Below, in pieces: positions 16,937 through 58,745 of a stretch of 64,000 nucleotides of DNA. The translations under genes and the position numbers were made by a program. The notes beneath the pieces were generated by a model that saw only the letters and a list, made by a program, of their open reading frames with translations, was not told the DNA's origin and searched no databases. The DNA is from Eledone cirrhosa (Eukaryota). Each line of letters opens with the position of its first letter. The stretch's first letter is position 1. The stretch spans positions 98,642,001-98,706,000 of the forward strand of contig OZ024745.1 of the NCBI GenBank assembly GCA_964016885.1, given 5' to 3'.

Positions 16937-16994
16937 GGAAATTCCTGATGATTTCAAATGAATGAAACAGTTCTAGTCCTGTAGAAGTCATTTC
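16937..16994 (+). ncRNA. Type I hammerhead ribozyme
   Basis: TTC-CTGATGA(16945)-tTTC aaat GAAt-GAAA-CAG ttctagtc CTG-TA-GAA. The GUA triplet is at 16981-16983, helix I is TTC/GAA extended by GAAAT/ATTTC, and a truncated paralog lies at 29629-29675. Confidence 0.7.
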
Positions 16995-18979
16995 TTTATT
17001 AAATGGAAAAGCATCGAGCAAATTATGAATTTTGAATGTAAGTGAACTTCAAATTAACGGCTTCAATTCATATAAACCCCTAAAGACAAAAAAGTGTACA
17101 AATAGTTCACTTTTTTCTGTATTTGGGGGACTTATATACCCAACTTGTTTGACTGTTGTTCAGTCAAAAACATTTATATATATATCATCATCATCATTTC
17201 ACGTCTGATTTCCCTGCTAGCAAGGGTTGGACGGGTCTACAAATACCAAGTCAGTAAGAAATGGGGCTACTGACCTCCCAGATTGGCCGAGGGGTCTGTA
17301 TCCCGCTTACATCATATCAAGTGCAAAAGAGTTGTCAGGTCTTTTGACACAAACTGAAGAGTCCTCTTAACTCCTTGTTTGGCAAGCAGTCTATGGCTGA
17401 ATGCCCTTCCTAATTCCAACAGCGTGTACTGGGTGCTTTTATTGTGTATATCACTAGTACTAAGGAGATTGCTGTGTCTTTGACACAACTAATGGGTCCT
17501 CTCAACCCTTTTAGGCATGATTTCTACAGCAGGGTGCCCTTCCTGTTGCCAACCATCCTTACTGAGTGTACTGTGTGCATTTTCGTAGCAGCATCACTAG
17601 AGAGGTTGTTAATCATGGACCCAACTCTAGGGCCCGCTCAGCTCTGGGGAGGGAGGTAGGTATGAAGTGGGGTTTTGGCAGGGAATGAGTAAATTATATT
17701 ATATAGGGTAACAAGTTTACAGCATATATATCATTATCAACATTTAATCAACATTAAATGATGATTTATACTGAATTTCAATGCTGAAAAACGCTGTAAA
17801 CCTGTTGCCTTCATTTATAATGCAGTGGTATACTTTACAAGACTGAATAGGTCAGTTTTAAATAGGAACGTTTACAATCTCACGTTAAGCTTGCTACAGG
17901 CTAGTTTTGAAATATTGATTACTAAAAGTTCAATATAGATATACAGAAAAACTACAGAAGTCCAAAAAGATGATCATTATTGATGACATATTTCTAATCA
18001 AATGCTGAATAAAACCTTAATCAGTGTTTCTGTGTGTTATTAAGTAAATATTTTTATACCCTGTAAAGTGTTAGTATTGGTGCCATGATAAAATACACCC
18101 AGTATACTCTGTAATGTGTTATTGGTGCAATAAAATACACCCTGTTCACTCTGTAAAGTGCTAGTGTTGATTCCATGATAAAACAAACCCAATACATTCA
18201 GCAGTGTTAGTATCTTGATAAAATGCACCAAGTCCACTCTGAAAAATGGTAGTGCTGGTGCTACGAAAAATACATCCAGTACATTCTGTTAGGTGGTTGG
18301 TGTTAGGAAAGGTATCTAGTCACAGAAACCAAGCCAAATATGGAACATAACAAGCAAAATGAAGTTGCTCCAACCCATCAGACCTCAAGTTATGACAATT
18401 CACCCAACCCATGCCAGCATGGAAAGCAGACAAAAAATGATATATTACTAAGATTTTATTAACATTATGTATAATGCAAATTTCAAACCAACTTCAATCA
18501 TTAATTCTAAAATGAAATGTGGCAGATCCAGTGCTGAGCTTAGAATTGACAATGAGAAAAGGCTCCAGTTCAACTCCCCCACGACTTGAGTTTATAATCG
18601 TTTCAGTAAGGTTTGTTGTTATCTGAACCTTGGTTTTGATTAAGGCTGCACATGACAGCTTATGTACAACAGTCTATCCTACAGGAAATAAGTCATGTAC
18701 CGAGATATCCACCAATACATGGCTATCTAACATAACAATGAAGAGTGTCCACCATGAAAGAAATTATATTATACACACCTGGGTGAGGAAAGAGAGAAGC
18801 ACTAAGCCAAACCTTCCAAGCTACATAGTTATTTGAAATAACACAGAAAAAAATGTCGATCAACCCAGGGCAATGTTTCACCAAACACTGTCCCCTACGT
18901 CTCCTCAATATAAATCCAACAGACTGTACAATATTCATGGCAATAAGGAAACAAAAAAAAAAGAATTACGCAACGAAAT

Positions 18980-19380
18980 CAAGAGAAAGGGGGAGGGAGC
19001 GACAGCCTCTACACTCAAGTCTGTGTTTCAGCTGCGTCCCATGGACAAAACGGCAAAGGTATTGCCGCGGAGAATGGCCAGCGATACCCACTGCAATAGC
19101 TACCTCACCTCACGAGGCTCCTTCCTCGGGTAGGCTGCTGTCTTTCCGATTTTACGAAGGACATCAACAGTGCGGAGACCGAGGACATCTGAGGTCTCGA
19201 CGGCGACTGGTACGAAAAGGAAGTGATCGAGCAAGCTCGGGTTTTTATTTATCTTCCTCTCCTCTGCCTGGCGGTCGGCGGTGTCCCGATTTGGGACCGA
19301 AATAACAAAGTTGAGGGCAGAGAACGAGTCACAACACGCTGACTCCGCCAGATTAGGAATTTACCTTCCCCGAATGGAAA
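18980..19380. promoter_or_regulatory. CpG-rich unique segment, probable promoter or non-coding first exon
   Basis: Locally high GC and CpG content in an AT-rich background. Minus-strand donor-like sites are GAG|GTGAGG (19108) and AAG|GTAAAT (19364). Confidence 0.4.
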
Positions 19381-20990
19381 GAAGGTTATTCCGTCAACAG
19401 ACTAAAACAAATTTACTACTACTACTACTACTAATGTTGCTAAGATAGCCCTCACCACTTTATGATAAAATAGGTGTGTCTACTACGGGGAAGGGGGTGA
19501 TGTTGGGTGTGTATGAGTGAGGGAGAAAGAGAATACACACAAACAGACACATGCACTAAAATAAAATCCTGAAATTATAGAGGGGGAAATGTGAAGTAGT
19601 GATATTTATATCTTCTAAAATAATAAACGTACGAGACTGAAAAGAAAAGGTTACTGAGTGGTTTCAGAGTTAATTTGGGTATTTTTGTATTGACAGATTT
19701 ACAAAATATTAATATCTGACTGGGCACAAGACAGATTTATAGGTACAGTCAACTGTAAATTAATAGGAAGGCTCCGTCTCATACTGGTGGGGAGAAATGA
19801 GAGGCAGCCTCAACAACAGATTATTTTGTTCTGTTTAAAGCTTTTGATATCGTTAATACAGTAAAATAGACAAGTCCTCAGATTACTGGAGCAGCCAGCG
19901 TGGAGTCTTGCTCGAGGGCACAACGTGCCGCTTCTGCGGGCAGGAATTGAATTCACAAATCCAACAACATAACTACTAAACTACAACGAACACAAAATTT
20001 CAGCAGTACTTATTTTACAGATGCCCCCATGGAAGGATTGAAATTGAAATCAACCCAAGCGGGATTTGAAACGGAGAAGAACGAAATTATATACTTCAAA
20101 GTCTTTAATCCGACGCTCTACTGTATCAGTAATTTCGACCGACCTAATATTTGTAACTAAGGTAAAACGGCCTCAAATGTGGGAGGGTGGAGCAATCAAT
20201 TAAATTGAACATTCACTACTTGACTAGTATTTATTCTATCAGCCGTGAAAGGAAGAAAAACAAATTCAATCGGGACAGGATTTGAACTCTGAACATAAAA
20301 GCACGTCACTAAATCCAACCAGACATTTTCTCTGACCCTCTACCGATTTTACAATCCACCTCAGTCGTTGTTGCACTTTGGTTTCACAATATGCCAGTAC
20401 AGCTTGGCTCTTGTTGCGTGTTAGATTTGTTTTTTCCACACATAAAAAAAAAAAGTAGAAGTAAATTAAGATATGGTGGATAAAGAGGTCTAAGGATTAC
20501 AACCTGGATATTTCTCCCATTAGAGATATCGGTATACGTGTCTACAAGAAAAATCATCATTTTATTAAATACATAATATCAATACACACCCTCATTTTGT
20601 ATTTACTTACAGTATAAGATATTGTATTGTAACATTAATTTTACACTTGTGGTAAACAAGAAAATCATTGTGTTTATTTCTACAGGAAGGAAAAGAAGTT
20701 AGAAGTGAAAGTGGTTTTCTTTACAACAGGTATCATATCGTGTAAATTGTGTACGTAGTAGATACACGCATTAGATATATTTATTTACGTGTCAAAAATT
20801 GCCAACAAATTACTGGTTAAAAAGCATCACATTGTCCCAGGTCTATAATATTAGTCGCTATTTGGCTCCCTAAACAACCAAAATGAAATGAATGCAATAA
20901 CAGTTATAGTATAACTAAAATGACAACAACGTTGACGTAAAACTAAATGAATATTGGAGTAGAAGAGAAAAAAATCAACTTTCAACTCAC

Positions 20991-21188
20991 CTTTATAATA
21001 TATGGTTGTTTGTTATTATCATCCGAAGGTTTGTCATTACTGCCTTCAATAGTAGTAGTAGTTTCCTGTGGATCTTGGGTCGGCTCTTGTGATATTTGTC
21101 CAGTTAAAGAGTCCGATTCCGAGGAGTTAGGTTGATCAATGTGACGGCTGCTCTCAACTTCTTTCCCTTCAGCAACATTGGCCGCCAT
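20991..21188 (-). CDS. First coding exon of an unidentified host gene (MAANVAEGKEVESSRH...QPYIIK)
   Basis: Strong start context AAGATGGCGGCC, 66 codons of acidic disordered N-terminus, and a canonical donor AAG|GTGAGT at 20990 (phase 0). Confidence 0.75.
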
Positions 21189-21229
21189 CTTAAAACACTG
21201 CTGCCCCCTACTTTACACGCTGGCAAACC

Positions 21230-21950
21230 TCTCTCTCACTCTCTTTCGTTTTCTCTCTAATGCTCACCTTGTCTCTTTCGCCTTCTCTCTAAAGCTTACT
21301 CCCTCTCTCACACTCTTTTGCTTTCTATCTAATGATCACCTCTCTCTCTCTCTCTTTTTCACTCTTTGGCTTTTTCTCTAATGCTTACTCACTCTTTTGC
21401 TTTCTCTCTAATGTTTACCCTCTCTCTCTTACACTCTTTTTCTTTCTCTCTAATGTTCACTCTCTCAGTCTATCCTTTCTCTCTAATGCTCACCTTCTCA
21501 GTCTATCGCTTTCTCTCTAATGCTCACCCACTCAGTCTCTCGCTTTCTCTCTAATGTTCACCCTCCCACTCTGTCTTCACTTGACCTCCTTCTTCTCTCT
21601 CTCTCTATCTATCTATCTATTTAACTCTCTTATCACCAATGAAATAGATTTCCCTTCTCTTTCTCCACCTGCTGTGCTTTCTTTCTCTCTTTCTCTTTTT
21701 TTTTCACGCTTACCCTCTCTTTTCTTTTGACTTCCTCCTTCTCGTTCTCTCACTCTCTATTGCTTTAACTCTTTTACTTCTTTATCACCAATGAAATAGA
21801 TTCCCTCTCTTTCTCCAGCTTTCTCTCTACCTTCTTTATTCTTACATTTCGCCTATTAGTTGTATCTTTTCTCTCTCACTCTCTCTGTTATGTCTTTCTT
21901 TTTCTTTCTCTTTCTTTCCAATGTTTTATTGCTTTTAACACTCCTCCTCT
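21230..21950. repeat. Polypyrimidine/polypurine tract with ~30-bp 'tttctctctaatgctcacc' repeats upstream of the gene start
   Basis: A directly visible (TC)-rich tandem repeat starting ~40 bp from the ATG at 21188. Confidence 0.8.
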
Positions 21951-25596: not shown

Positions 25597-25816
25597 TGTG
25601 TCATCACCTTTGGCAGGTGCAATTGTGCAAGGTCAGCTTTTATCACCTCATCCAAAGTCTCCCTAGGCCTGCCCACTCTCTCTCTATATATATTTATAGT
25701 AAGGGGTTAACCGAACACAGATGTGTGGTCCACATAATGGTCTGTCGGTTGTGAAATATATATAATGGATTTTAATAAACCTAAACCAAATGAATAATGC
25801 CTCGGATTTTTTATTG

Positions 25817-25847
<31 letters not shown>

Positions 25848-26430
25848 TTTAAAAGAATAGAGGTGTAACACACAAGTTATTATATATTGGTAAATGGAAT
25901 AGAAAATGCTGACAAATTGTTCACAGTGAAAAATAGTTTAATTAGGAATAAGTGAGAATTAGTAATTGTATTGGTTAGTATTCAGTTTTGGTTTTAAGTT
26001 TTACCGGTTGCGCAACCAGTAAAACTTAAAACCAAAACTGAATACTAACCAATACAATTACTAATTCTCACTTATTCCTAATTAAACTATTTTTCACTGT
26101 GAACAATTTGTCAGCATTTTCTATTCCATTTACCAATATATAATAACTTGTGTGTTACACCTCTATTCTTTTAAATATATATATATATATATATACATAT
26201 GTATATATCAATAAAAAATCCGAGGCATTATTCATTTGGTTTAGGTTTATTAAAATCCATTATATATATTTCACAACCGACAGACCATTATGTGGACCAC
26301 ACATCTGTGTTCGGTTAACCCCTTACTATAAATATATATATAGAGAGAGAGTGGGCAGGCCTAGGGAGACTTTGGATGAGGTGATAAAAGCTGACCTTGC
26401 ACAATTGCACCTGCCAAAGGTGATGACACA
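25597..26430. repeat. Spacerless palindrome with ~415-bp arms centred at 26011/26012
   Basis: The centre is GGTTGC|GCAACC. The arms are reverse complements apart from a few substitutions and (TA)n length differences. Confidence 0.95.
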
Positions 26431-27975: not shown

Positions 27976-29769
27976 TGGGCTAACAGACCAGTCCACCTAC
28001 CTGTCAATAGATCCATAACTGAGAGCACTGTAAAATTAAGTAATGTTTCATTAGTTTGCAGTGCAAAGTTCTTTTTCTCCTACATATAGAGTCTAAAGTG
28101 GAGTTTTGTTCCTCTATCCCATTTATTTGCTTAAATGTACAGCAATACAAAGTTCATAGTATACGAAGCACACTCAAGAGGTTTTGTGTTGATCAGAGTT
28201 AAATAAATGACTCTCTGATAAAAGTCTCAACACCTCTTGAATGTACCTCATATGTGAGTAGAAGAATTTTCAGTTATTTGTTTTTTTTTCTCTTGTTCGA
28301 GGAAGACCACAAAAATCATGGGCGGAGGTGGTGAGAGCTGATCTCAGATCGCTGAAGCTTACGGAGGAGATGACGAAGGACTGTGACAAATGGAGAGATG
28401 CTGTGTTGAATAGGACCCGTCCCACCCTTGCAAGCAGGGAAAAGCGGACGTAAAATGATGATGATGATGATGTTCCTTGAGTCTAGTTTGACAAAAAAGT
28501 ACCAAAAAATGAAAATAAAAAAGTTATTGATAAAACATGAAGACCAACAATAATCTTTCTCTCAGCTAATTTATAACAAAAGCAAATTTGTGGCTGATTA
28601 CAGTATTAGAATTAATTGAAAGAAAGCCATGGCAGGAACATTTCTAACATGACAGATATCCATTGGAATAACTTCAACTTAAAACTGTAAGGGAACGAAA
28701 CACTTGTTAGTTCTACACTGCTTTCCCTTCTGTTAAGAACTGTACTCAAACAGGGGCGCAGATATATAACTTGATGAGATGACAGATAACAGCACTAGCT
28801 ATTGTATAGTAACCATGTATACAATGAATTGCTAATGAAGCAATTCAAACCATTATCCTTTCAACAAATAGTTTGATACTCTAATCCTGGTTGGTGGTAA
28901 TAGAATTGTTTGAAAAGAGGTCATGGAGTGTGTGGAACCATTTAAACTTAGTATTACAAAATAATGAAATATGTATTAATAAAACATCACCTCTACTAAC
29001 CACTTGCAGTGGATTGCTATAGAAATGGCAGCTATCTAATAGTCAATGAACATAAAGAACACTTACAACAGCTTTTAGAATAATTGTGACTTTTATTACA
29101 TCTAATGTTCAATAATGAAAAAAGAGATAATAAAGCGAGAGTAAAGTGAAAATGAAAATGATTTAATCTGTTGTAGGTAACAGGAAATAGAAATGTTAAT
29201 TTACCTTCAAAATTATTGATTTTACTGACACAAGAGAAATATGTCACCATTTACATCTTGTTTTTATAATATGTTTATAATAATAATAATAATTGTTTCT
29301 ACTTTTGGCACAAGGCCAGCACTTCACCAGTGCGTGACTGGTACTTTAAATAATAATAATAATTGTTTCTACTTTTGGCACAAGGCCAGCAATTATCTCA
29401 GTGTATTACTGGTACTTTATTTTATCGACCCCGTAAGGGTGAAAGGCAAAGTTAACCTCAGCGGGATTTGAACTCAGACCATAAAGGGACGTAACTATGC
29501 TCGAAAGCATGGCGTCCGACCCTCTACCGATACTGCCAATAATAATAATAATAATGATGATTTCTTTATTAACCACCTGTTTATCTCTAAATCTCTTATC
29601 TTCCTTCATATATATATATATATATATAATGATTTCTCTCGAATGAAACAGTTCTAGTCCTGTAGAAGCCATTTCTATATTAAATATTTATACTCTGCTA
29701 TGTATTGAGTACCTTACTTACTGTGGTTACCCCCGATTGAACCCGGGATAAACTTTTATATATATATAT

Positions 29770-31970: not shown

Positions 31971-31973
31971 TAT

Positions 31974-36730: not shown

Positions 36731-36767
<37 letters not shown>

Positions 36768-36769
<2 letters not shown>

Positions 36770-37110: not shown

Positions 37111-37146
<36 letters not shown>

Positions 37147-37357
37147 GTTGAAAAGGTAACACACTAGAGAGAAAAAGTGTGCCATCAATAAAACAGGGAA
37201 AAACCACCAGTGTATGGAATCTATACTCTATGGAAGGTAGCAGCTCATCCCTCAGACACCACTGGTTCACTGCCCTAAACACGCTGTGACATCTCTCTGC
37301 CACGTGTAGCTGGACAGTCGCTTTAGATTCTCTTAGAGTTGTCTGGAATGTATATTC

Positions 37358-37443
37358 TTACACGAGCTGATGAGCCATAGGCTATTCCATTTCAGTCAAC
37401 AACTTCCTGGTGAAACAGATCTCTTTGGATTTGTACGCGTGTG
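37358..37443 (+). ncRNA. Type I hammerhead ribozyme inside inverted repeat 37142-37240/37508-37605
   Basis: ACACGAG-CTGATGA(37367)-GCCA...TGGT-GAAA-CAGATCT cttt GGATTTG-TA-CGCGTGT. All three helices pair, with one mismatch in helix I, and the GUA triplet is at 37433-37435. Confidence 0.8.
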
Positions 37444-38402
37444 TTATATAGTTATAGAGGTGCGTATATACATTTTAATTTATATTTTTAATTATTGTGT
37501 GTCTACCCTGCCTTCCATAGAATATAGATTCCATACACTGGTGGTTTTCCTGTTTTATTGATAGCACACTTTCTCTCTCTAGTTTGTTACCTTTTCAAAC
37601 ATATTGTATTTTAAAGAGCTCAGGATTCCTATTCCTTTGAGCACATTATTGACAGGGAATAACGAGAGTCTATGGCTCCATTAATTTGTCATAATATGTA
37701 TATATATAAGGAAAAAAAACAAATCGAAAATGCAACTGGAGTCGTTTTAAGAATATTTATTTGGTTCCTTTACTGGTTTCGTGTTCGGATGTTACTTCTG
37801 TTTTATATGGAAAAAAGTGGCTCGAAATGGTAGGTTTTTAGAAAAGTGATTTGATTTGTTACCGCCTTTTCAGTTTGTATGGCGTTTATAACATATGTTT
37901 ATAGCTCTGGTTTTTTAAACTATGGAGCGCTTGCCAGCATGCCTCTGAATTTGCGTTACGTTTCGCTTTTTCTATCCGCCGAAATGCGATTCTTGCTGAA
38001 TTTATATTTGTATTAATCTCCCGAGTCTTACAATTAATCTGTTAATAATTCTATTGACAGATTAATTGCATAAGTTTATTTTAAAAACTACCCGATTGAG
38101 TGCTTATTCGATTTGTGCTATTTATGCAATTTTTTGCATGATTTACATATACTGAATTCATTTGCCAAAATCTGGGGTTTTTCCCCTTGTGAGTCACACA
38201 TGTGCTTTTACAAAACACTACATCATTCACAACACTGGCGCAGAACAAAATACCTGTTGATAATGTGATATTCCTTGTTCGATCATTATACCAAAAGCTT
38301 ATGGTTTTAAGCAGACAGTATTATTGATTTAGGTCTCATAGAAACCCTGTATTTGGATTTTACCACCAATTCCAATGGGTCCAGGTTTGTTGTATATATG
38401 TG

Positions 38403-38461
<59 letters not shown>

Positions 38462-38675
38462 GTTAAAGTGTACATCTACATATGTATACGGAAGTACTAG
38501 TATGCATATAAATACACACATGTATACATATGTACATGTACCGAGTTTTTCACTAGACACTTTACAGTGAGTGTCCAGCTAGTCTGTATGTAAACAAACA
38601 GACGAACCGGGTTTTAAAGTCATACGAGTTTTCAAGGAAACACACTTCCTCTATTCTCCAGAGAGCCAGACAGGA

Positions 38676-38718
38676 ATATTGGACTAGTTTCGATGTTATT
38701 ACATCTCATCAGCAATAT
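38676..38718 (-). ncRNA. Minimal type I hammerhead ribozyme (intact consensus)
   Basis: ATATTG-CTGATGA-GATGT aata ACATC-GAAA-CTAG-TC-CAATAT, with perfect helices I and II, a palindromic ACTAGT helix III and a GUC triplet. Confidence 0.92.
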
Positions 38719-39372
38719 ATACCTATCTTCCGGCTTCTCTGGAGAATTGTAAAAGCACATATCGTTATATGCTTTTTCTATGAAAATCAGTAGTGGGCAG
38801 ACTAATTTGCATAGAACGTGAGTCATTGTATGCGCCGGTTCAGCGGAAACGATAAAAACAAATAACGAAACGAAATTAAATTTCGTTTCGCTTCTAACTC
38901 ACTTTTGTATGACTGACGCTTAAACAATTAAGTTAAAGTGTACATCTACATATGTATACGGAAGTACTAGTATGCATATAAATACACACATGTATACATA
39001 TGTACATGTACCGAGTTTTTCACTAGACACTTTACAGTGAGTGTCCAGCTAGTCTGTATGTAAACAAACAGACGAACCGGGTTTTAAAGTCATACGAGTT
39101 TTCAAGGAAACACACTTCCTCTATTCTCCAGAGAGCCAGACAGGAATATTGGACTAGTTTTAATTGTTTAAGCGTCAGTCATACAAAAGTGAGTTAGAAG
39201 CGAAACGAAATTTAATTTCGTTTCGTTATTTGTTTTTATCGTTTCCGCTGAACCGGCGCGTACAATGACTCACGTTCTATGCAAATTAGTCTGCCCACTA
39301 CTGATTTTCATAGAAAAAGCATATAACGATATGTGCTTTTACAATTCTCCAGAGAAGCCGGAAGATAGGTAT

Positions 39373-39415
39373 ATATTGCTGATGAGATGTAATAACATCG
39401 AAACTAATCCAATAT
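39373..39415 (+). ncRNA. Minimal hammerhead ribozyme, second copy, with a G>A change in helix III
   Basis: ATATTG-CTGATGA-GATGTAATAACATC-GAAA-CTAATC-CAATAT. Confidence 0.8.
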
Positions 39416-40019
39416 TCCTGTCTGGCTCTCTGGAGAATAGAGGAAGTGTGTTTCCTTGAAAACTCGTATGACTTTAAAACCCGGTTCGTCTGTTTGTTTA
39501 CATACAGACTAGCTGGACACTCACTGTAAAGTGTCTAGTGAAAAACTCGGTACATGTACATATGTATACATGTGTGTATTTATATGCATACTAGTACTTC
39601 CGTATACATATGTAGATGTACACTTTAACTTAATTGTTTAAGCGTCAGTCATACAAAAGTGAGTTAGAAGCGAAACGAAATTTAATTTCGTTTCGTTATT
39701 TGTTTTTATATATATATATATATATATATATGATTTTATCATTTATTTTGTCTGACTTGTTTAGCTTGACTTGTTTTTTGGCTTAGGTGGTTAATGCCTT
39801 CTTGACTGCCTTTTCAGTTGTATGGCGTTTATAACATATGTTTATAGATCTGGTGTTTTAAACTATGGTGCACTCTGAATTTGCATTACGTTTCGCTTTT
39901 TCTACCCACCGAAATGCGATTCTCGCTGAATTTATATTTGTATACCGCCTTTATATATATATATCCAGAATTAGCCGTCGAAACGGCTTGAGCTCAGCCG
40001 TCGAGGTCTTACTGGTTCC

Positions 40020-40052
<33 letters not shown>

Positions 40053-40838: not shown

Positions 40839-41168
40839 ACCAATCCTAATACCTATTTTTTGCTGGACCGGCAATCGCTCTGTATAATCAGCTCCTGATT
40901 ATTACTAGAATTCTATAAGAATCCAGCTTCTATAATTTTCGGCGGAAGCAGGGAGTGCGTAGCTCTGATGATCGCCAACCAGCGTGAAACAGACTGTTGG
41001 CTTCTCTCCCTTCTTTCGCCGAAAAGAAGTAAGTGACATAGTCACTACTTTAAAACTGATAGTGTAAGGTCTTCTAAATGTTTTAAATTAAACATACGGT
41101 ATATTGCCAAATATACTATACATACAGTCATGTATACATCGCTATTTCAGGGCACCAATCCTAATACC
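40839..41168 (+). mobile_element. 315-bp retrozyme-like monomer with a 15-bp terminal redundancy, inserted in (TA)n
   Basis: ACCAATCCTAATACC occurs at 40839 and 41154, there is an internal hammerhead, and (TA)n lies outside both ends. Confidence 0.75.
40936..41025 (+). ncRNA. Type I hammerhead ribozyme with a long extended helix I
   Basis: AGCT-CTGATGA(40965)-tCGC caacca GCGt-GAAA-CAG a CTG-TT-GGCT. Helix I is extended by TTTTCGGCGGAAG.AGGGAG / CTCCCT.CTTTCGCCGAAAA. The triplet is GUU. Confidence 0.82.
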
Positions 41169-41419
41169 ATATATATATATAGGAGACATGGTAAAAGGGC
41201 TCCCAATCCACACTGTAAATGTGGTTGGTGTTAGGAAGGGAATCCAGCTGTAGAAAACCTGCCAGAAACAGTTCTGTACGAGAGAGACACGGTCTTCCAA
41301 CCAATCTTGCCTCAAGTGGGACAAAACCGTCCAACCCATGCTAGCGTGGAAGATGGATATTAAACGATGATGATGATATATATCTATATACATATATATA
41401 TGTGTGTGTGGGTGTGTGA

Positions 41420-41473
<54 letters not shown>

Positions 41474-41960
41474 AGGCACATGGCTTAGTGGTTAGAGCAT
41501 TGGCCTTGCAATCGAAAGGTTGTGAGTTCAATTCTCAGACCGGGTGATGTGTTGTTTCCTTGAGCAAGACACTTTATTTCACATTGCTCCAGTTTACTCA
41601 GCTGTAGAAATGAGATGATAGGGACTGGGGTCCATATCATTCCACTGCAAAGTGGTCATGGAGGTGCCACGGCAAAAAAGCACCCAGCACTCACTGTAAA
41701 TGAGGTTGGTGTTAGGAAGGGCATCCAGCTGTAGAAATCAAGCCAGAATCAATTCCCGTCCCACCCTTGCAAGCAGGGAAAAAGCGGACGTAAAATGAAA
41801 TGAATGAATGAAATGAATGAATATATATATATGTAGGAGGTGAGTTTTATTGTAGTACAATAAAGCAATGCAGATATCGGATAAGAAGCACTCTACAGTT
41901 TGTAGGACTGGAGTATACATAATATATAAGATCAAAAGATGGTTAAAGGAGTTCCATGTA

Positions 41961-42027
41961 TTTTATTATGCGCATTTCAAAAACAAACATCATCATGCAA
42001 TAATATTTGTGTTTTCATCAGATAAAA
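41961..42027 (-). ncRNA. Type I hammerhead ribozyme (left-arm copy)
   Basis: Reverse complement of 42854-42920. Confidence 0.85.
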
Positions 42028-42853
42028 CAGGAGAACATGATATGAAGGCTAAAAAATACTTGTGGATAGTGCAGTTTTAAATCAACATATGAAAAGTAGT
42101 TTTAGATTGATGTGTGATATTGGGAAAAATATTTTATTTAGAGAGGGAGGGGGGGGGGGGGGAAAGGATGAAAAAAGGGGAGGAGATGAGAGTGAAGGTG
42201 GAGAGGGAGAGATGGGTGATAGAGAGAAAGAGATAGTTTTTATAACTGAGAAAAGATATATTGTTTTACATAGAGAGGTTGAAAACCGTTGGAAGATAAT
42301 GTATAAATTAAAAGAATTTGAAAATTAACGAAGGGAAAAATATGTACATTAATTTATACATTATCTTCCAATGGTTCTCAACCTCTCTATGTAAAACAAT
42401 ATATCTTTTCTCAGTTATAAAAACTATCTCTTTCTCTCTATCACCCATCTCTCCCTCTCCACCTTCACTCTCATCTCCTCCCCTTTTTTCATCCTTTCCA
42501 CCCCCACCCCCCCTCTCTAAATAAAATATTTTTTCCTCGTACATATTTTTCCCTTCGTTAATTTTCAAATTCTTTTAATTTATACATTATCTTCCAACGG
42601 TTTTCAACCTCTCTATGTAAAACAATATATCTTCTCTCAGTTATAAAAACTATCTCTTTCTCTCTATCACCCATCTCTCCCTCTCCACTTTCACTCTCAT
42701 CTCATCCCCTTTTTTCATCCTTTCCACCCCACCCCCTCTCTAAATAAAATATTTTTCCCAATATCACACATCAATCTAAAACTACTTTTCATATGTTGAT
42801 TTAAAACTGCACTATCCACAAGTGTTTTTTAGCCTTCATATCATGTTCTCCTG

Positions 42854-42920
42854 TTTTATCTGATGAAAACACAAATATTATTGCATGATGATGTTTGTTT
42901 TTGAAATGCGCATAATAAAA
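42854..42920 (+). ncRNA. Type I hammerhead ribozyme
   Basis: TTTTAT-CTGATGA-AAAcACAAATATTATT gcat GATGATGTTTGTtTTT-GAAA-TGCGCA-TA-ATAAAA, with a long helix II, a palindromic ATGCGCAT helix III and an AUA triplet at 42912-42914. Confidence 0.88.
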
Positions 42921-42952
42921 TACATGGAACTCCTTTAACCATCTTTTGATCT

Positions 42953-42983
<31 letters not shown>

Positions 42984-47039: not shown

Positions 47040-48900
47040 GTACTCTCGGGTCTTGAGTAATTGTTGTACAAATACTCTGTCTCCTTTTGTCCTCCACCTT
47101 GTCAGGAACAGACAAATCCAACTCTCTCTCCACCATAGAAGAGCTTCATCCATCTTCCTGTTGGAATTAGTCCATGTTGCTCACCAGAATGGAGAAAAGG
47201 AAGCAAGGGAGAGAGAGAGATGAGCATTTATGTAGACCAAAACCTCCAAATTGCTTGGGTAATGCAGCCTGACCATGGGAGACTGACATTGACCAAGGAC
47301 TTGAATCTCTCAAATATTAGATCATCAAAGTGTTTGAGACATGACAGAAATCTGTGAGATGGGCAAACCCTGAGCATATATAGAAACTTAGGAATCGATA
47401 GGTAATTCCTGAGTATAAAAAAAACCTTGATGGGGTTCGATTGCTTCCATGTTTTTCATTAATTACTCAAAAGCTAGGTCTGTAATTGAGGCTCTCAAAG
47501 AGCACCATGTCGGTGGGGGAGGGATTGCAATGGATGGGAAGAACTCTGCAAACAGGTCTATTGTCTGCTGATGTTGAGAAGCTGGGCGGTTGAGAATCCA
47601 GAGCTCACATTTGGAGCTATTGACCTGGAGACCCCAATGACCAAGCTCTTTAATCATTTTATTTGCAGTTATAAGAACCCTATCTGGAGGTTCCCCCAGA
47701 CAAGCGTCATCAATATACCAAATGTTTAAATCCAGCTCAACCTCCATCTTGGTGATGTCATCAAGCCCAGTGCAAACAGAGAAGGTCACCCTGTTGACTA
47801 CTGAAGCAGAAATGATGATTTGGTCACCAAAAGAGAGGTAGGAGGGCTCCCAATAAGCCTGCCAACCAAAGTGGTAGAGTTGTGGGACCCTCTCCCTTAC
47901 TGAGCTGGAGACGACATCATGGCTGACGGAATTGAAGGCATTCTTGAGGTCAAGTTTCAGGATGACCCTGAGGGACTTGGAGGGCAAGTTGGTGAAGGCT
48001 CTGGTAGCGTGGGCCTCACATCCCAGATTGGTACCCACTCCTATCTGGATAGGGGAAAATTCCACCAATAGTGAATCAGAGACCGATAGCAAACGCACCT
48101 TCGCAATAAGGCAACAAAGGGTACAGTTCTCCGTTGGGCTTAGTGAGTCCGAATAGTTTCACACTAAAGAACAATGGACGGCTATAGGGGAGAAAGTTCT
48201 CTGAAGAGAACTGATTCACCAACTGAGTCACTGGCCAATAAAGAGATACCATCCTTGAGGTGCTGAGTTTGTGGACCTTCAATCCCCGCACCAGAACCAG
48301 CGGGGAAGGATCAAATTGCCTTTCTGATGTTATCAGTGGTGTGGACAGGTCTTGAGTATTCTGGTGGTTCGAGCCAGTTTAACTGGTCATCAGGAGGGGG
48401 GCTTTTCTTTCAGTCGCTGGAGAGAATCTGAGTTACATGGTGCAAGGGAGGACAAAGAAGAGAGGAGATGGATAACGCCTTTAATGTCAAATTTGCTGAA
48501 TTGGGCTTTAACAGCATGTTCTAGGTTTATTGGTTGCCTGTTAATAGACACCGAGCTTTATTCCAAGCTGAGGCGAGAAATGGTTGGGGTGGACTCAAAC
48601 AGCTGGAACTCTTGCCTGAGAGATGTGAGGGAGCCAAATTTCACATTGTGCACGTGGAGAGACGAGAGGGAACAGCATTGTCTCTAACGGTGGGATATGA
48701 ATGGAGGTTAGGTGAGCAAGGTTAATTCCGTTCGAATCTAACGGCGGAGAGGAGGGGGGCATAGGGGAGACAAGTTATCACCTCTCGTGCGTGCCAAAGT
48801 TGTTGGAGAATGAGGTCGCAGACTGACCAGAATATCGGCCAGCTAACGCGGCGAGTGAAGACAATTTCGACCTCGTACACGGTCCACCTAAGAGTATGTC
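47040..48900 (-). mobile_element. Decayed CRE-clade non-LTR retrotransposon (RT region)
   Basis: QIGVG, ILKLDLKNAFNSVS, WYIDDACL and GLQVNSSKCEL in ORF 47463..48098, and GLTKPNGELYP upstream. Confidence 0.82.
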
Positions 48901-51635: not shown

Positions 51636-52208
51636 TAGAACACCCCTCTCGATTTCAGTGGGAAATAATTATTTTTCCTGTTTGCTATCAACTAATCTGA
51701 CCTCCGAACATGCTGCAGAGGATTTGTTCCCCTGGGAAACGGAGAGAGAACCCTCGGATTTCCCCAGCTCAAAGTTTTCTTTACCATTTATTTTTTCCTG
51801 TTCTCAACGAATCTGACCTCCAAACCAATCGGAAATGACTAGCTTTGTAGAAAAGGAAGGAGAAATGGTGAAATACCTTCAGAGTTTCTCAGACCGGTAC
51901 CTCTCGCGTTTAATGGCAAATATATTTTTTTCGCGAGTTATTGATGAATCTAACCTACAAGTACGCTATTCCTAAACCTTTCGACATTTGTCGTGAGGTA
52001 CAGTTAACTAAAAAAAAAAAAAAAAAAAAAAAAAAGAAAACTATAACAGGAACAAAAACATGATTAAAAAAAAAAAAAATTTCTGAGCCCCTCTTTTCCG
52101 GGTGGGGGGAGGAGAGTCCTCTGCAGTTTGTTCGGAGAACAGATTAATTGATAGCACACACGCGAGGAAAAATAACTATTTTCCACTGAAATCGAAAGGG
52201 CTGTTCTA
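51636..52208. mobile_element. MITE/fold-back element with ~85-bp imperfect TIRs and internal diverged repeats
   Basis: TAGAACAcCCCTCTCGATTTCAGTGGGAAATAATTATTTTTCC... is mirrored at 52117-52208, and internal 'aatct(g/a)acct' occurs three times. Confidence 0.7.
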
Positions 52209-53589
52209 TAATTTATTTTATTTTAAATATATTAAATGGCGAAATTATCTGAATAGGCTTAAACTGATATACAAGATATTCACCACATTGTTTTCCTTCA
52301 GGTATAACTACATTTTTCAGCTTGTGGCGTTCGAGACATTTGGGGGAGTCGGGCTACCGACTGCGAGATTCTTATCTTCACTGGCGGCTCACCTAATAGA
52401 GGTAACTGGTGAAGTTCGTGAGGGCACTAGGTTGTTCCAGCGCCATCACCCGAGGTAACACCGCGAGCGTGCTGGCTGGCCTCAAAAATTCTTAGGTTTC
52501 CCAATGCTCCTCGCAATACTGTTATCTTTTACTCTGGTAGCGGCTCGGTTGTCCGCTCCTTTCGGTATAAAAAGCAACGAATACCAAAAGGCAAAATCTA
52601 GACGAATGGATCAAGAGAGAAAAAAAGAAAAGAAAAGTAAAAAAACTATTGTAAATGATTTTTACATCCGATTGTTTTATTGCACATCAATAATTTCATA
52701 ATTAAAAATAAAATATAAAGAAAAAAAAATATTGCATTCAAAACAGAATAGAAATATTTTGTAAATAAATAATTGTTTCTACTTTTGGCACAAGGCCAGC
52801 AATGACCCAGTGCATTACTGGTACTTTATTTTATCGACCCCGTAAGGATGAAAGGCAAAGTTAACCTCGACGGATTTGAACTCAGAATGGCAAGGGCCGT
52901 AACTATGCGCCAAAGCATGGCGTCCGCCCCTCTACCGATACTGCCAATCCACATGGCTGTAATATTTTTTTCTTTACACTTGAAGTTTGTGATTTTTTGA
53001 GGAAAGGAAATACAAATAACATTCATGGCTTTCCAAAGTTCATTAATAGTGTCTAAAAATAAAAGGTGAAATTATCCCAACTGAGATTCGAACTGTTTCT
53101 AGACAAAATGTTAAAAATTTACCACTGCTCTACAACAGGAAAAAATAATTTGAATAATAAAAATGTTTCTACTTTTGGCACAAAGCCAGCAATTACCCCC
53201 GTGCTTTATTTATCGACCCCGTAAGGATGAAAGGCAAAGTTAATCTCGGCGGGATTTGAACTGACCGTAAAGGGCCGTAACTATGCTCAAAAGCATGGCA
53301 TCCGACCATCTATCGATACTGCCAATCCACCGCCCTTATATATATATATAAAAAAAATATAAAGGAATTCCAGTCAATCATTGCAATTGGTACAGAAAAA
53401 AATATTTTAAAATGATTTCTAGCACAAAGCCACAAATTTTGATGGTGGGGGAACAGTTAATGAAATTTATTTATATCTAGTTGACTCGTACTTTATTTAG
53501 CAGCCCAGGAAAGGCTGAAAGATTAAGTGGACCCCCACCCCAACATCGTTTGAATCAAGACTAAAGAAATATTACCAAACACCAAGTAT

Positions 53590-54200
53590 TTTGCCTAATA
53601 CTCTTAACAAGTTTAGAACCATCTGGATTGTCCAGAAGTGATGGCAAAAGACCCGATGGCCTTACCCTGTGTCCCTGGTCGAGAAGCAGGTGCCTTGTCT
53701 GGGACGTCACTGTTAGTGACTCTTTTACTCTTTCCCCACATTCTGGATACTGCGGTTAGGAAGAGAGCCACAGCTTCTGCAGCCGAGTGGAGTAAGACCC
53801 TCAAATACTTTGATCTGTTGGCCAGCTACATTTTTCAGCCTGTGGTTTCGAGACGTTTGGGGGAGTCAGGCCGTTGACTGCGAGGTTCCCGTCTTCACTG
53901 GCAGCTTGCCTAATAGAGGTAACTGGCGAATCTCGCGAGGGCGCTTGGTTGTTCCAGTGCATTAGCCTCGCCATCATCCGAGGCAAGGCTGCGAGTGTGG
54001 TGGCTTGCCTCAAAAATCAGTAGAGAGGTTGCCTGGTACTCCTCGCGATGTTGCTGTCTTGCTCTGGCGTTCACCCCTTCCTTTAATATTGTTGTAACAT
54101 TAAAAGAATATATCTTTCTGAAAGAATCGTGAGCAATTTATAACCTAAGCATTTGTAATGTTATTTATGTATATATTTAAAACATTTATATACTCTGCAA
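53590..54200 (+). mobile_element. CRE-clade 3' end (restriction-like endonuclease and 3'UTR). Shorter copies at ~50570-50960 (+), ~52300-52560 (+) and ~63450-63800 (-).
   Basis: [22 protein letters not shown]...VWDVTV and YIFQPV.FETFGGVGPLTARFLSSLAA.L.EVTGE.REGAWLFQ.ISLAI.RG.AASV. Confidence 0.85.
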
Positions 54201-54329
54201 TTCTTTCAGAATGAAAATATAAACAAACGATTTGTAATGTTATTTATACAACTGAATAAAATTTTCTAGAGTATAAACTATTTCTAACACAGGAACAAGT
54301 CTTTAAATTTGGGGAGGAAGTTATAGTAA

Positions 54330-54600
54330 TTATAGTAACCCCACACCTGGGCATAATAATTTGTAGGTGGGAGAGTGTAGCTAATTAATTAGTCAACCAC
54401 CTCCCCACAGTGTGGTAATTTGTGGGAGGAGAGTATAGCTAATTATTCACCCCCCCAGGGTGTGGTAATTTGTGTGTGTGTGGGGGGGGAGGGAGTATTG
54501 CTAATTAGTTACCCCACAGGGTGTGATTTGTGGAAGGAGGGTATAGCTAATTAGCCCCCTCCCCCAGGGTGGTGATTTGTCAGGAGAGTATAGCTAATTA
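54330..54600. repeat. Diverged ~50-60-bp tandem repeat
   Basis: Recurrent 'gtgtggtaatttgtgggaggagagtatagctaatta...cccc(c/a)cagg'. Confidence 0.75.
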
Positions 54601-54996
54601 TTTGGCAAGTTTTCTACTACTGGATTACATTCCTATACAAAAATGCTAAAATAGTATTCAAATCTAATCTTAAATTGCTGAAGAAAAGAATTGATTACTC
54701 AACAGAACAGAATATTAGTTTCACTTAGTTAAGCACAATGAATATCTGGGAAAAGTAAATGGAAAGGTGTATTACACTGGCAGTTCCCATAGGAAATTGT
54801 TACACAAATGATGTGAATTGGCTTAAAGAATCAAAACTAGATCACAGTCTTGGTTCACCGGTAGCTTCATAATGCACACAAACTGTAAAATACTTCAGAG
54901 TAAAAATTGTGAGATTTTTTTGTTGTTAAAATGGCAAAATATATTACAAATATATTCAAAAGTCACTGTATTATACAAACAAAATACATGTTGAAG

Positions 54997-55029
<33 letters not shown>

Positions 55030-57583
55030 GGGAATGTTATTTAGGCAACAAAATAGGTAAATTTACAAAATATATACAGTTTTTCTTTAAGAAAGTAATC
55101 AATTTTCAATATCTCAAAAAGAAAGAAAAAAAATTTTAATGGAAAAATAAATTACATGGGAATTTATACAAAATGAGAGTTCAAAATAATTCTTTGGTCA
55201 CTGTCAAAAACTACAGAAAGTATTTAATATTTTGGAGGCGATTAGTAAAGGGAAAAAAATAAAGATCTCTAATTTTTACACAAGGCCAGCAATTTTAAGG
55301 GGAGGAAAAAGTTGATTCTAATAATGATCCCAGTACTTGACTGGTACTTTATTTGGTCCCAAAAGACTGAAAGGCAACATTCACCTTGGTGGGATTTGAA
55401 CTTAGAGTGCAGTGTACCAAAGAAAAAAAAATAGTAAAGAGAGCATGGCAGGAACAATACTTTAACCTTCAGGACACTGAATTATTTTTTCCCTTGACAC
55501 TGCATTATGTATTAAGGGGAGATTATGTTATTGTTGCCAACTGCATTAAAGGTTAAAAATGACTGAAGATGAATTATTTCTGAAAGGCCTGGGAGAAATA
55601 TTTACAGGTAGCAATTATTTATTTTAAACAAGATAAAATATGTATCACAGAAGATGGTACTTTATAAATGGAATGGAGCCCCCCCCATTGATTTTGACAA
55701 TGAGTTTCTGTTGATTGATCAATGGGATAGCCCACTCATGAGATTAATGAACAAGTGAACAAGCATTCCACAGACACGTGTACCCATAATGTAATTCTCA
55801 GAGATTCAGCATGATAATGTGTGTGGCCATGCTGGACCATTGAATTACAGGTACAACTCATTTTTTCCCCCAAATGAATGGACTAGAGCAAAGTGAAAAA
55901 GTATCAAGTATCTTGCTCAAGGACAATTCTCTATCTGGTCAGGGTATCTAACATGACCATGAGCTGAACAGTAACCACTAAGCCATATGTCTTCATACTT
56001 TATAAATGGATATCAAAATAAAACAATTATTGCATTTAGAAATTAGGAGGGGAAAAAAATGACCATCAACTGTGATGAAGAATCAAACAAATTTTTTTTT
56101 TTTTTTGTGGGAGGAGGGACTGAAAAGCATAACTGGTGTTTAGTAGTAGGTACACAAGGTGGAGGAATGTGTTTAGCAGCAGGTAGATGGTGGGCCACAT
56201 GTGTTTAGAAGTAAAGGTGGAGGAATGTATGTTTAGTAGTAGATACACAAGGAGGAGGACCACATGTTTAGAAGATTGTATCACTGTATGAATCTACAGT
56301 CTCTCAAATATGCAACATGCCATTTGAAAGATGGTGTCACTGTGTGAGACTAATGTCCCTCAAACATGCAACATACCATTTGTTTCACGTCAACACTGGT
56401 TAACACACTGTAGAATGGTAGGTTTCTTTCCGTGTTAAAAGAATAAGAAATCAGGCAAATTTAGCATCTTGAAAATTAAAAGACTTCAAAAATGAATTGC
56501 ATAAATTAGTCATTACTTTCGAGAACATAAGTAATATCGTTGTTTTACTTGGAAGAAGTAATGGTTTATATATTAACCCTTTAGCATTTATACTGGCCAT
56601 ATCTGGCCAGAATTCTCTCACCTATTTCTGCTCAAACCGACCATAGCTACTCGCTCATACTCAAAGGTATTGTTCTCAAATAACATCAAAATCTCAGATT
56701 TGATATTATGCAAGATAAAGCCTTTACCACAAAAATACAATAGTATATATATAGAGTAATGTAAATGCTAAAGGGTTAAAATATTTTTACCATTAATAAT
56801 TCTATCAATTTATAAGTTAAAAAGAGAAATGAATTAGATGCATCCTCTACCATTGCCCACTTATTCCTGAGAGGTTTGTTGGGGTAGAGTCCTCAAATAC
56901 TCCTTCCAGCAGGTCTAGTCAGAAGCAACCATCTCCAACTGATCCAGCTTGATCCCGAAGCGAGACACCAGTCAAGCTCATGGATGTTATCCAACCATCT
57001 TGCTCGGGGGGTCCCTCCCTGGATCTCCTGCCAGTTGGTTTTGCCCATAAAATCTGATTATATATCTATATAGTTATAGTGTGTGTACAGCATGGAAGAA
57101 GAAAAGGGGGACAAAGCATAAAGCATCTAAGTTAAAAAAGTAAACAAAAAGTGAAAAGCCAATTGTGAAAAGACATAGTTGACAAAATACTTTCACAAAA
57201 ATAATGTAGACCAGTTCTTTTTGGGCAAATGCATTCAATGTTCAAAAAGTGGGATTAGCCCCATGAAAAGTCTGTCATCACTTAAAAAAAGCTTCAAGCA
57301 GAGGCATCGCTGGCCACAGGCAAGCCCCTAGCAAGACTAAAAAGCTACGCCCATGTTAAAGTATCAAACAATGGCATTACTTGAAATCGAGCTGCAGCCA
57401 TCTCATATACACACACACAATATTGACAGATGTGAGAATAAGTACTCTACCAAAATAGAGTTAAGTTCTTTATTATGACTAAATGGTAAGTCTGGCTACT
57501 CTGGAGTTTCACCTGTGCAACTCACATCAGACAAGACTGACTTCAGCTATAATAGAGAGAAAGTGAGTGAGTGAGTGAGCAAG

Positions 57584-57619
<36 letters not shown>

Positions 57620-58166
57620 CAATTACAGACATTTGATCAATCAGTATCTAATGGTTACAGTGTGTATGATTTTTGTTTGGTACAAACAATTGAAATTGTT
57701 AGAATGCATAAATTCAATGGAACTAAAATTCCAATTCTAGAAATTTTAGTTGTTCCAAGAAGAATTATGCTAATGTACTTTAGAATTCTCACAGAACACT
57801 GACAGACCATCTTTACTTGTTCACAACATTGCATCTAGATCATAAGTATTTCACAAGAGATAAAATATTGGCACAGATGAATGGAGCTCTTTCAAAAGTT
57901 GTTGGGAGTTACCAGATACCAATATATTAGTGATAGATTCATGAACAAAATTAAAGGTTAGTGAACATAACTGTCTTGATCACACTGATCAAAAAGAAAC
58001 TGCAAAGGTCATTAGAACACCCCAATGATGAGATAACCCCTCCCCCTAAAAAAAAAAACAAAAAACAAAAAAAACACACAAACAATTGAATTATGAAGGA
58101 TTAGATCAGGGTCATCAAACTTTACTTGCAGCAAGCACAATTAAGAGAAATCTAAAATATTTTACC

Positions 58167-58198
<32 letters not shown>

Positions 58199-58433
58199 TC
58201 TAGGGGTAGTTTTGAAGGTCATATTCGTTCAAAACAAAAAGATCAGGAAAACGATAAATTCTAACCAAACCTATTGTCATATATATGACCAAAGATTAAT
58301 ATGGTTCATTGATTACTCAATGAATCCAGTTTCACAATAGATTAAAAGCACTCAACAAAAAAGTTTTCCTGGAGTTTTTAATATTATTCAAAATATTAAC
58401 AAATTAAGATATTCACATAATCAAAATATATGC

Positions 58434-58497
58434 TTTATTATATATATATATTTCGAAGGGACTGTGTTGTTTTTTCAGTACGTCCTCGTCAGATAAA
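58434..58497 (-). ncRNA. Type I hammerhead ribozyme (left-arm copy)
   Basis: TTTAT-CTGACGA-GGACGTACTG aaaaaacaaca CAGTCCCTTC-GAAA-TATATATATA-TA-ATAAA, with a palindromic (TA)n helix III and an AUA triplet. Confidence 0.8.
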
Positions 58498-58607
58498 ATA
58501 TATGATTTGATATATGACATACCTCTACGGTCTTGGTAGTTCAATTCCTGTATTGGCAGGAATTGAACTATCAAGACCGTAGAGGTATGTCATATATCAA
58601 ATCATAT

Positions 58608-58669
58608 TTTATCTGACGAGGACGTACTGAAAAAACAACACAGTACCTTCGAAACATATATATAATAAA
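58608..58669 (+). ncRNA. Type I hammerhead ribozyme (right-arm copy)
   Basis: TTTAT-CTGACGA(58613)-GGAcGTACTG...CAGTACcTTC-GAAA-CATATATA-TA-ATAAA. Confidence 0.78.
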
Positions 58670-58712
58670 GCATATATTTTGATTATGTGAATATCTTCAT
58701 TTGTTAATATTT

Positions 58713-58745
<33 letters not shown>

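What the first reader, a model, noticed from the sequence alone, without database searches (positions are those of the whole stretch)
16937..58714. Dispersed system of hammerhead-ribozyme (retrozyme-like) non-coding inserts associated with (TA)n
Seen: six largely unrelated non-coding inserts (16937, 37142, 38456, 40839, 41919, 58389) contain a foldable type I hammerhead, CUGANGA...GAAA...NUH with helices I-III, nine copies in total. The helix sequences differ while pairing and core are conserved. Most abut (TA)n and show tandem, terminally redundant or inverted architecture. Established: minimal type I hammerheads with a palindromic helix III occur in Penelope-like elements and in metazoan non-LTR retrozymes that make small circular RNAs and cleave as dimers. 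Inference: this genome hosts a diverse ribozyme-based circRNA/retroelement system, probably mobilised by PLE RT/GIY-YIG. I cannot tell from here whether these families have been described.
Basis: partly seen in the sequence, partly recalled or inferred. Interest (0 to 1): 0.92.

Follow-up and report, generated by a model that had tools for sequence, protein, structure and literature searches.

The report
Penelope ends and hammerhead retrozyme families
Six inserts in this window carry hammerhead ribozyme motifs and mostly sit in TA repeats: two are broken-off ends of Penelope-like retrotransposons, and three are protein-free repeat units that are likely copied by the same enzyme, probably from small RNA circles, a known kind of mobile element.

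Summary
The nine type I hammerhead motifs are real (7 pass a strict descriptor against 0.04 per shuffle; the other 2 each carry one helix III change). They are not one system. Inserts E and F are 5'-truncated, inverted 3' ends of protein-coding Hydra-clade Penelope-like elements (PLEs); E has intact ~800-aa copies elsewhere in the genome. B, C and D are ORF-less, circularly permuted units of ~540, 470 and 315 nt: non-LTR retrozyme type. A is an old ~165-nt fold-back element of unresolved origin. B-F share PLE insertion marks: (TA)n targets, two 3' ends 30-100 nt apart, inverted truncated arms. Units within one insertion share the source haplotype yet have decayed as much as separate insertions, so arrays were mostly made at insertion, not by later satellite growth. 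Most C arms read through the cleavage site: the template was a circle or an uncut multimer. Cleavage, expression and circles are untested. No window insert has two complete same-strand ribozymes. Both kinds are published; retrozymes from a cephalopod-like host were not found in seven searches. The scan noted similar elements on other DNA.

The parts
16937..17005 (+). Family A: short old element beginning at helix I of a type I hammerhead (C3 16945, predicted cut after 16983, U-U at base of helix II); 3' part missing here
   Evidence: 1333 first-look candidates
29629..29760 (+). Second family A fragment between (TA)n runs; lacks the CUGANGA strand
37143..37698 (+). Family B insertion: inverted truncated arm 37143-37237 plus direct arm; part of a ~540-nt circularly permuted unit; hammerhead C3 37367, predicted cut after 37435
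   Evidence: 2656 candidates
38457..39159 (-). Family C inverted arm, 1.5 units of 470 nt; full hammerhead C3 38712 (predicted cut after 38682) and the 3' half of a second one at the junction
39160..39709 (+). Family C direct arm, 1.17 units; hammerhead C3 39379 with a G>A change in palindromic helix III; ends at the long 3' site, joined to (TA)n
   Evidence: 868 and 1506 candidates, 98-100% identical copies
40841..41170 (+). Family D insertion, 1.05 units of a 315-nt circularly permuted unit (the 14-nt terminal redundancy is unit overlap, not a target duplication); hammerhead C3 40965, predicted cut after 40998
   Evidence: 2968 candidates
41832..42959 (.). Family E: two back-to-back 3' ends of a Hydra-clade PLE (3.9-kb unit, ~800-aa ORF in full copies); left arm carries the ~85-nt tail; hammerheads C3 -42021 and +42860
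58281..58714 (.). Family F: two back-to-back 3' ends of a second, older Hydra-type PLE; left arm carries the ~100-nt tail; hammerheads C3 -58492 and +58613 (helix III change)

Best explanation
E and F are truncated, inverted 3' ends of Hydra-clade Penelope-like retrotransposons, and B, C and D are protein-free circularly permuted repeat units (non-LTR retrozymes) that are likely copied in trans by the Hydra-type enzyme, probably from ribozyme-made RNA circles. Steps: (1, inferred) a source array with two or more same-strand units is transcribed; (2, predicted from the motif, untested) the hammerheads cut out a monomer, which is ligated to a circle; (3, target shown, enzyme inferred) the PLE endonuclease nicks (TA)n; (4, shown as fixed 3' ends) reverse transcription starts at one of two internal sites 140-300 nt past the cut site; (5, shown) synthesis runs through the cut site and can pass round the unit up to 7 times before stopping at variable points; (6, shown) the other side of the target often receives an inverted arm of the same haplotype with its own 3' end. 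Most insertions hold one ribozyme per strand and are likely dead ends. A is likely another PLE-dependent element of which only the ribozyme-to-tail part is copied. The classification (PLE ends plus retrozyme-type units) I hold at about 0.95; the score below is for the whole mechanism with Hydra enzyme and circular template.
For: E continues upstream into an RT-endonuclease ORF; about 48 of 150 listed RT hits lie in one 821-codon frame (hand count); a natural 2.3-unit array has units 99.9% alike but 96-97% to another insertion. F continues into broken ORF pieces 37-67% identical to E in 3 of 30 loci. B, C, D wrap from unit end to unit start in dispersed loci and none of their 30 loci each extends into a shared ORF. 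3' ends abut (TA)4+ in B 33 of 40, D 33 of 45, E 31 of 32, F 31 of 38 ends and C 23 of 25 arms (hand count), against 10.7% of random 26-mers in the loci and 2.8% in the window. Each of B-F has two 3'-end clusters, the PLE 'tail' shown in vitro to mark two internal RT starts (PMC11167929). At source-level polymorphic columns, tandem units / inverted arms of one insertion differ 5 of 52 / 25 of 151 (D), 6 of 26 / 13 of 70 (B), 2 of 29 / 1 of 16 (C), against 37%, 34%, 39% between insertions; at other columns within equals between (D 5.1-5.8 vs 5.1%, B 4.9-5.4 vs 4.0%, C 0.9-1.2 vs 0.9%). 23 of 25 C arms extend more than 2 nt upstream of the cut site. Common variants fall in loops, the helix II base and H17 (C or U), not in the core. 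C and D units fold as circles far better than shuffles (z -10.3, -5.1).
Against: No sequence link between A-D and any of four Hydra families examined, so the partner is assigned by target and architecture only; a Neptune-like PLE fragment also lies in the window and that clade is also reported on microsatellites. Reading through the cut site fits an uncut linear multimer equally well, and in the one PLE studied in vitro the ribozyme was not needed and uncut RNA was the main template (PMC11167929). Only 1 of 9 retrozyme dimers cleaved in the Xenopus preprint. One C array repeats a two-unit block with the same deletion, so some local duplication occurs. B folds no better than shuffles (z -1.2, one aged copy). 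The column pairs are not independent and include CpG-type sites. Loci were the 30 best matches per search, biased to near-full copies.
Confidence: 0.55

Rival explanations
1. Same PLE enzyme, but the template is an uncut linear multimer transcribed from a tandem source (or the RT jumps between RNAs); B, C, D are simply mini-PLEs and any circles are by-products.
For: Uncut RNA is the dominant template and ribozyme mutants still insert for the anole Poseidon element (PMC11167929). The 3.9-kb autonomous E element forms the same homogeneous tandems. All my genomic patterns fit this too.
Against: Core and pairing are spared by source-level variants, which points to selection on the ribozyme fold. 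Without re-expansion, 5' truncation would shrink arrays, yet C arrays reach 7.4 units. Circles were shown for coral, mussel and axolotl retrozymes (PMC7229834).
Confidence: 0.25
2. B, C, D (and A) are mobilised by another reverse transcriptase, a Neptune-type PLE or a Hydra family not sampled, less likely the RTE LINE that is intact in this window.
For: No homology to the E, F, G, H untranslated regions; the genome has 52,000-59,000 first-look Hydra-like candidates of which four families were seen; Neptune-like RT pieces are present.
Against: Target, double 3' ends and inverted arms match E and F closely; D and A share the U-U helix II base, and D the GUU triplet, with the ribozyme of Hydra family H; E is as young as C.
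Confidence: 0.13
3. Monomers insert once and tandem arrays grow later as satellites by unequal crossover, as the 2026 preprint proposes for vertebrate retrozymes.
For: One C array shows a repeated two-unit block.
Against: Units within an array are as decayed as separate insertions; arrays have fixed 3' ends, variable 5' ends and multi-unit inverted arms.
Confidence: 0.04
4. The motifs are chance matches in AT-rich repeats with no ribozyme meaning.
For: Seven of nine are missed by Rfam; several MFE z-scores are weak.
Against: 7 against 0.04 in shuffles; core kept in 203 of 234 family copies; every Hydra family examined has its own motif at the same place.
Confidence: 0.01

Closest known systems
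Metazoan non-LTR retrozymes (Cervera and de la Pena 2020, PMC7229834; parts 2-4 of 6 read)
   Same: Short non-coding tandem units with a type I hammerhead, GC below 50%, coexisting with PLEs; weak or palindromic helix III; U-U at the helix II base as in axolotl HHR_Amex2.
   Different: Here mostly dispersed insertions of 1-3 units in (TA)n with inverted arms and two internal 3' ends; no target duplication can be read; units up to ~540 nt; three unrelated families in one genome; circles and cleavage not shown.
Hydra-clade Penelope-like elements (Craig et al. 2021, PMC8557442; section 11, passages and supplement passages read), including Hydra-1_Obim of Octopus bimaculoides
   Same: Single ORF with RT and C-terminal endonuclease, DKT, CxCx5C linker, CxxC and CxH motifs, no CCHH, (TA)n target, 3' hammerhead, tandem and inverted truncated copies with a tail.
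   Different: E has RWT where the clade motif is RWK, a 3.9-kb unit (most described ones are under 3 kb), clear tandem pLTRs, 80-100-nt tails, and many intact copies; its ribozyme sequence differs from that listed for Hydra-1_Obim.
Vertebrate retrozymes as non-autonomous PLE derivatives (Li, Clavereau and Pollet 2026, bioRxiv 10.64898/2026.07.22.740005; parts 1-3 of 5 read, supplements not seen)
   Same: Co-occurrence with PLEs; PLE-dependent mobilisation proposed.
   Different: There the link is pLTR homology and arrays are ascribed to local satellite growth; here there is no homology to the sampled PLEs, the link is insertion anatomy, and arrays appear to be made at insertion.
Poseidon element of Anolis in vitro (Frangieh et al. 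2024, PMC11167929; parts 1-3 of 4 read)
   Same: AT-rich target, two internal RT starts that give the tail, copying across the ribozyme site.
   Different: Different clade; that work did not test circles or non-autonomous templates.

Membership tests
Type I hammerhead ribozyme | CUGANGA and GAAA core, helices I-III, NUH triplet | tested here: met
   7 of 9 pass the strict descriptor, 2 fail by one helix III change
Type I hammerhead ribozyme | Rfam gathering score | tested here: not met
   Best 34.2 bits to HH9 against 52; 7 of 9 no match
Type I hammerhead ribozyme | Self-cleavage | not testable with these tools
   needs a bench assay
Non-LTR retrozyme (B, C, D) | Head-to-tail units of a few hundred bases, one type I hammerhead each | tested here: met
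   units ~540, 470, 315 nt
Non-LTR retrozyme (B, C, D) | No protein coded | tested here: met
   no linked PLE ORF in 30 loci per family; no ORF of 120 aa inside the window inserts
Non-LTR retrozyme (B, C, D) | GC under 50% and highly self-paired predicted circle | tested here: inconclusive
   GC 36-41%; circular fold z -10.3 (C), -5.1 (D), -1.2 (B)
Non-LTR retrozyme (B, C, D) | Source copies with two consecutive complete ribozymes | tested here: met
   elsewhere in the genome: C arrays, D in L037, L056, L058, B in L125; not in the window copies
Non-LTR retrozyme (B, C, D) | Target-site duplication when present | tested here: inconclusive
   ends lie in (TA)n, where a duplication cannot be read
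Non-LTR retrozyme (B, C, D) | Expressed as circular RNA | not testable with these tools
   no read data could be examined
Non-LTR retrozyme (A) | Head-to-tail units | tested here: not met
   no tandem among 30 loci and the chance copies; copies start at the ribozyme and often fold back
Hydra-clade PLE (E) | Single ORF, RT plus C-terminal GIY-YIG-type endonuclease | tested here: met
   821-codon frame; homologs carry PF26215 in 13 of 21 hits; the local Pfam copy gave no significant match
Hydra-clade PLE (E) | DKT motif, CxCx5C linker, CxxC and CxH, no CCHH | tested here: met
   read in the protein and compared by eye with Hydra alignments in the paper's supplement; no tree built
Hydra-clade PLE (E) | RWK motif | tested here: inconclusive
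   E has RWT, family G has RWR
Hydra-clade PLE (E, F) | (TA)n target, 3' hammerhead, inverted truncated copy, tail | tested here: met
Hydra-clade PLE (F) | Full ORF with clade motifs | tested here: inconclusive
   only broken pieces, 37-67% identical to E, in 3 loci

The most novel reading that the evidence does not exclude
A Hydra-clade PLE protein performs rolling-circle, target-primed reverse transcription of ribozyme-made RNA circles, both its own 3.9-kb RNA and unrelated small hitch-hiker circles that it recognises by shape rather than sequence, writing whole tandem arrays into (TA)n in one event. The intact E protein and the young C unit would be a ready pair for the first reconstitution of retrozyme mobilisation.
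Probability: 0.35. Interest if true: 0.72.

Novelty: new member of a known kind. Interest (0 to 1): 0.4.

Why it matters
Who copies animal retrozymes, and whether their arrays arise during reverse transcription or later as satellites, are open in the two main papers. This genome gives anatomical evidence on both (PLE-type ends; arrays born at insertion from one haplotype) and offers a testable pair: a young, many-copy intact Hydra PLE ORF and a 98-100% identical 470-nt unit. It also shows that hammerhead hits in such genomes mix PLE stumps with true retrozymes, which matters for annotation. The elements themselves are of published kinds.

Tried and rejected
Looking for an autonomous partner of A-D by DNA similarity to Hydra families E, F, G, H: nothing above low-complexity noise. 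Hydra endonuclease pieces next to B and D copies (L149, L044/L192) are separate insertions sharing the TA target, not partners. A genome search with the second A fragment returned nothing, not even itself, and shows nothing. The C row (49 of 83) counts internal unit ends and was replaced by the hand count. The first pairwise variant tally was too noisy and was replaced. A pile-up of C 5' ends at the cut site was looked for: 2 of 25 arms start within 2 nt, too few to call. Terminal redundancy of D as a target duplication: rejected, it is unit overlap. Terminal inverted repeats of B, E, F as DNA-transposon ends: rejected, arm lengths vary between copies and both ends are element 3' ends. Rfam microRNA hits are simple-repeat or palindrome artefacts below gathering. 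Pfam did not recognise the Hydra proteins. No tree of RT sequences and no covariance model were built. The host was not identified by a test.
Full report
OBSERVATION. The window lies on contig C5 of a 3.0-Gb genome. It holds 37 CTGANGA sites. A type I descriptor with paired helices I-III and an NUH triplet, written after viewing the candidates, passes 7 of them; 300 dinucleotide shuffles in 1-kb blocks give a mean of 0.04 and at most 1. Rfam matches only the two C copies, to HH9, below gathering. MFE folding of the nine gives z from -2.9 to +0.05. The six inserts are unrelated in DNA apart from two low-complexity hits.

ALL SIX ARE MANY-COPY FAMILIES. First-look candidates, which are not copy numbers: A 1333, B 2656, C 868 (1506 with a shorter query), D 2968, E 2020, F 1639. 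Thirty best-matching loci per search were read. The core CTGANGA...GAAA is intact in A 28 of 44, B 31 of 33, C 51 of 54, D 28 of 37, E 25 of 25 and F 40 of 41 copies; columns that vary in many copies lie in loops, at the helix II base, at H17 (C or U in D) or keep a pair through G-U.

E AND F ARE PLE ENDS. E copies share more than 1.5 kb upstream, leading into an ORF with RT and a C-terminal endonuclease. About 48 of 150 listed hits lie in an 821-codon frame (hand count). Locus L303 is a natural array of 2.3 units of 3896 nt with a ribozyme before each ORF and the tail leading towards the ORF start; its units are 99.9% alike and 96-97% to another insertion. The protein has DKT, CxCx5C, CxxC and CxH and no CCHH, the Hydra-clade marks of PMC8557442 section 11, and lines up by eye with Hydra-1_Obim in that paper's supplement, which lists an octopus Hydra element with (TA)n target and hammerhead. 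RWK reads RWT. Its database homologs are unnamed, 13 of 21 with PF26215. F continues into broken ORF pieces related to E in 3 of 30 loci. Two more Hydra families (G, H; 59,424 and 52,088 candidates; G 43% identical to E over the RT) each carry their own hammerhead in the 3' region. The window's E and F inserts are two 3' ends back to back, the usual PLE stump.

B, C, D ARE RETROZYME-TYPE UNITS. C is a 470-nt unit, 98-100% identical among copies, in dispersed insertions of 1 to 7.4 units. D is 315 nt, B about 540 nt. Each wraps from unit end to unit start, and none of the 30 loci per family extends into a shared ORF. GC is 36-41%; as circles C and D fold far better than 40 shuffles (z -10.3, -5.1), B does not (z -1.2). 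A is about 165 nt, older, starts at helix I in the 30 loci and in copies met by chance, often as a fold-back, and was not seen in tandem; its origin is open.

SHARED INSERTION ANATOMY. 3' ends abut (TA)4+ in B 33 of 40, D 33 of 45, E 31 of 32, F 31 of 38 ends and C 23 of 25 arms (hand count after merging rows of one arm, for one arm), against 10.7% of random 26-mers in the loci and 2.8% in the window. Each of B-F has two 3'-end clusters about 88, 74, 30, 80 and 100 nt apart, none at the cut site. PMC11167929 shows in vitro that such a tail marks two internal RT starts. In C, 23 of 25 arms run more than 2 nt upstream of the cut site (the query required arms to reach the site), so the template was uncut or re-ligated.

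ARRAYS ARE BORN AT INSERTION. At columns polymorphic among sources, tandem units / inverted arms of one insertion differ in 5 of 52 / 25 of 151 comparisons (D), 6 of 26 / 13 of 70 (B), 2 of 29 / 1 of 16 (C), against 36.9%, 33.9% and 39.2% between insertions. At all other columns within-insertion divergence equals between-insertion divergence. Eight of 30 C loci were dropped first (six repeats of one insertion, one segmental duplicate, one double array) and 1 of 30 F loci. Pairs are not independent. One C array repeats a two-unit block with the same deletion, an exception. This fits multimeric cDNA from one source and argues against the satellite model of the 2026 preprint for these families. 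It does not separate a circle from an uncut multimer.

AGAINST AND OPEN. No DNA link from A-D to the four Hydra families; a Neptune-like RT fragment (label recalled from motifs) is also in the window. No window insert has two complete same-strand ribozymes. Cleavage, expression and circles were not examined. In the anole PLE the ribozyme was dispensable, and 8 of 9 Xenopus dimers did not cleave.

WHAT IS KNOWN. Non-LTR retrozymes: PMC7229834 (parts 2-4 of 6; supplement not read). PLE origin: bioRxiv 2026.07.22.740005 (parts 1-3 of 5; supplements not seen, and its species list has no mollusc in the text read). PLE anatomy and Hydra clade: PMC8557442 (passages, outline, section 11, supplement passages). 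Octopus repeat annotation PMC13282606: passages only, no mention of ribozyme, retrozyme or Hydra in the main text. Seven searches (listings and abstract starts) showed no report of retrozymes in cephalopods; the library lacks most subscription papers, and I did not read the 2014 paper on PLE hammerheads. The scan's earlier notes list a sea-squirt retrozyme and a tRNA-bearing PLE-type repeat in TA microsatellites on other DNA and nothing in this genome.

VERDICT. Observation confirmed, interpretation partly supported: two PLE stumps, three retrozyme-type families, one unresolved short element. New members of known kinds, with useful anatomical evidence on an open mechanism. Interest 0.4.

Noticed in passing
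window 26990-27996 (-): Broken PLE-type RT and linker fragment, Neptune-like by recalled motifs; related pieces in L006, L010, L080.
   Followed up: partly
window 31971-35084 (+): Open 1037-codon LINE ORF with endonuclease, RT and PHD finger; RTE-like by recall; several truncated relatives and SINE-like tails in the window.
   Followed up: no
window 25597-26430: Near-perfect palindrome of about 830 nt (98.6%) with a 164-bp inner hairpin between (TA)n runs; no hammerhead core found.
   Followed up: partly
window 39965-40020 and 58743-58910; L147, L236, L246, L247: Another repeated TA-flanked family, often as a fold-back pair; no complete hammerhead seen; may be a further PLE-dependent element.
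   Followed up: no
window 37710-38390 and 39731-40480: Two related non-coding stretches between TA runs that share segments; unclassified repeat.
   Followed up: no
window 60973-61710 (-): Intact-looking 246-aa GNAT acetyltransferase frame, likely a host gene.
   Followed up: no
window 12165-12914 (+) and 47463-48158 (-): A transposase-like fragment (hAT/Buster-like by recall, no Pfam hit) and a further RT fragment (RVT_1, E 1.6e-7).
   Followed up: no
L303 1072-9060; genome pairs: The autonomous 3.9-kb E element forms head-to-tail arrays of nearly identical units and head-to-head pairs; young and probably recently active.
   Followed up: partly
L228-L256, about 280 nt after the endonuclease: Hydra family H ribozyme has a U-U helix II base, palindromic helix III and GUU triplet, resembling family D in layout though not in alignable sequence.
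   Followed up: partly
window 36660-43200: Four of the six inserts, two SINE copies and other repeats are stacked in 6.5 kb, each joined through (TA)n: a likely insertion hot spot fed by the shared target.
   Followed up: no
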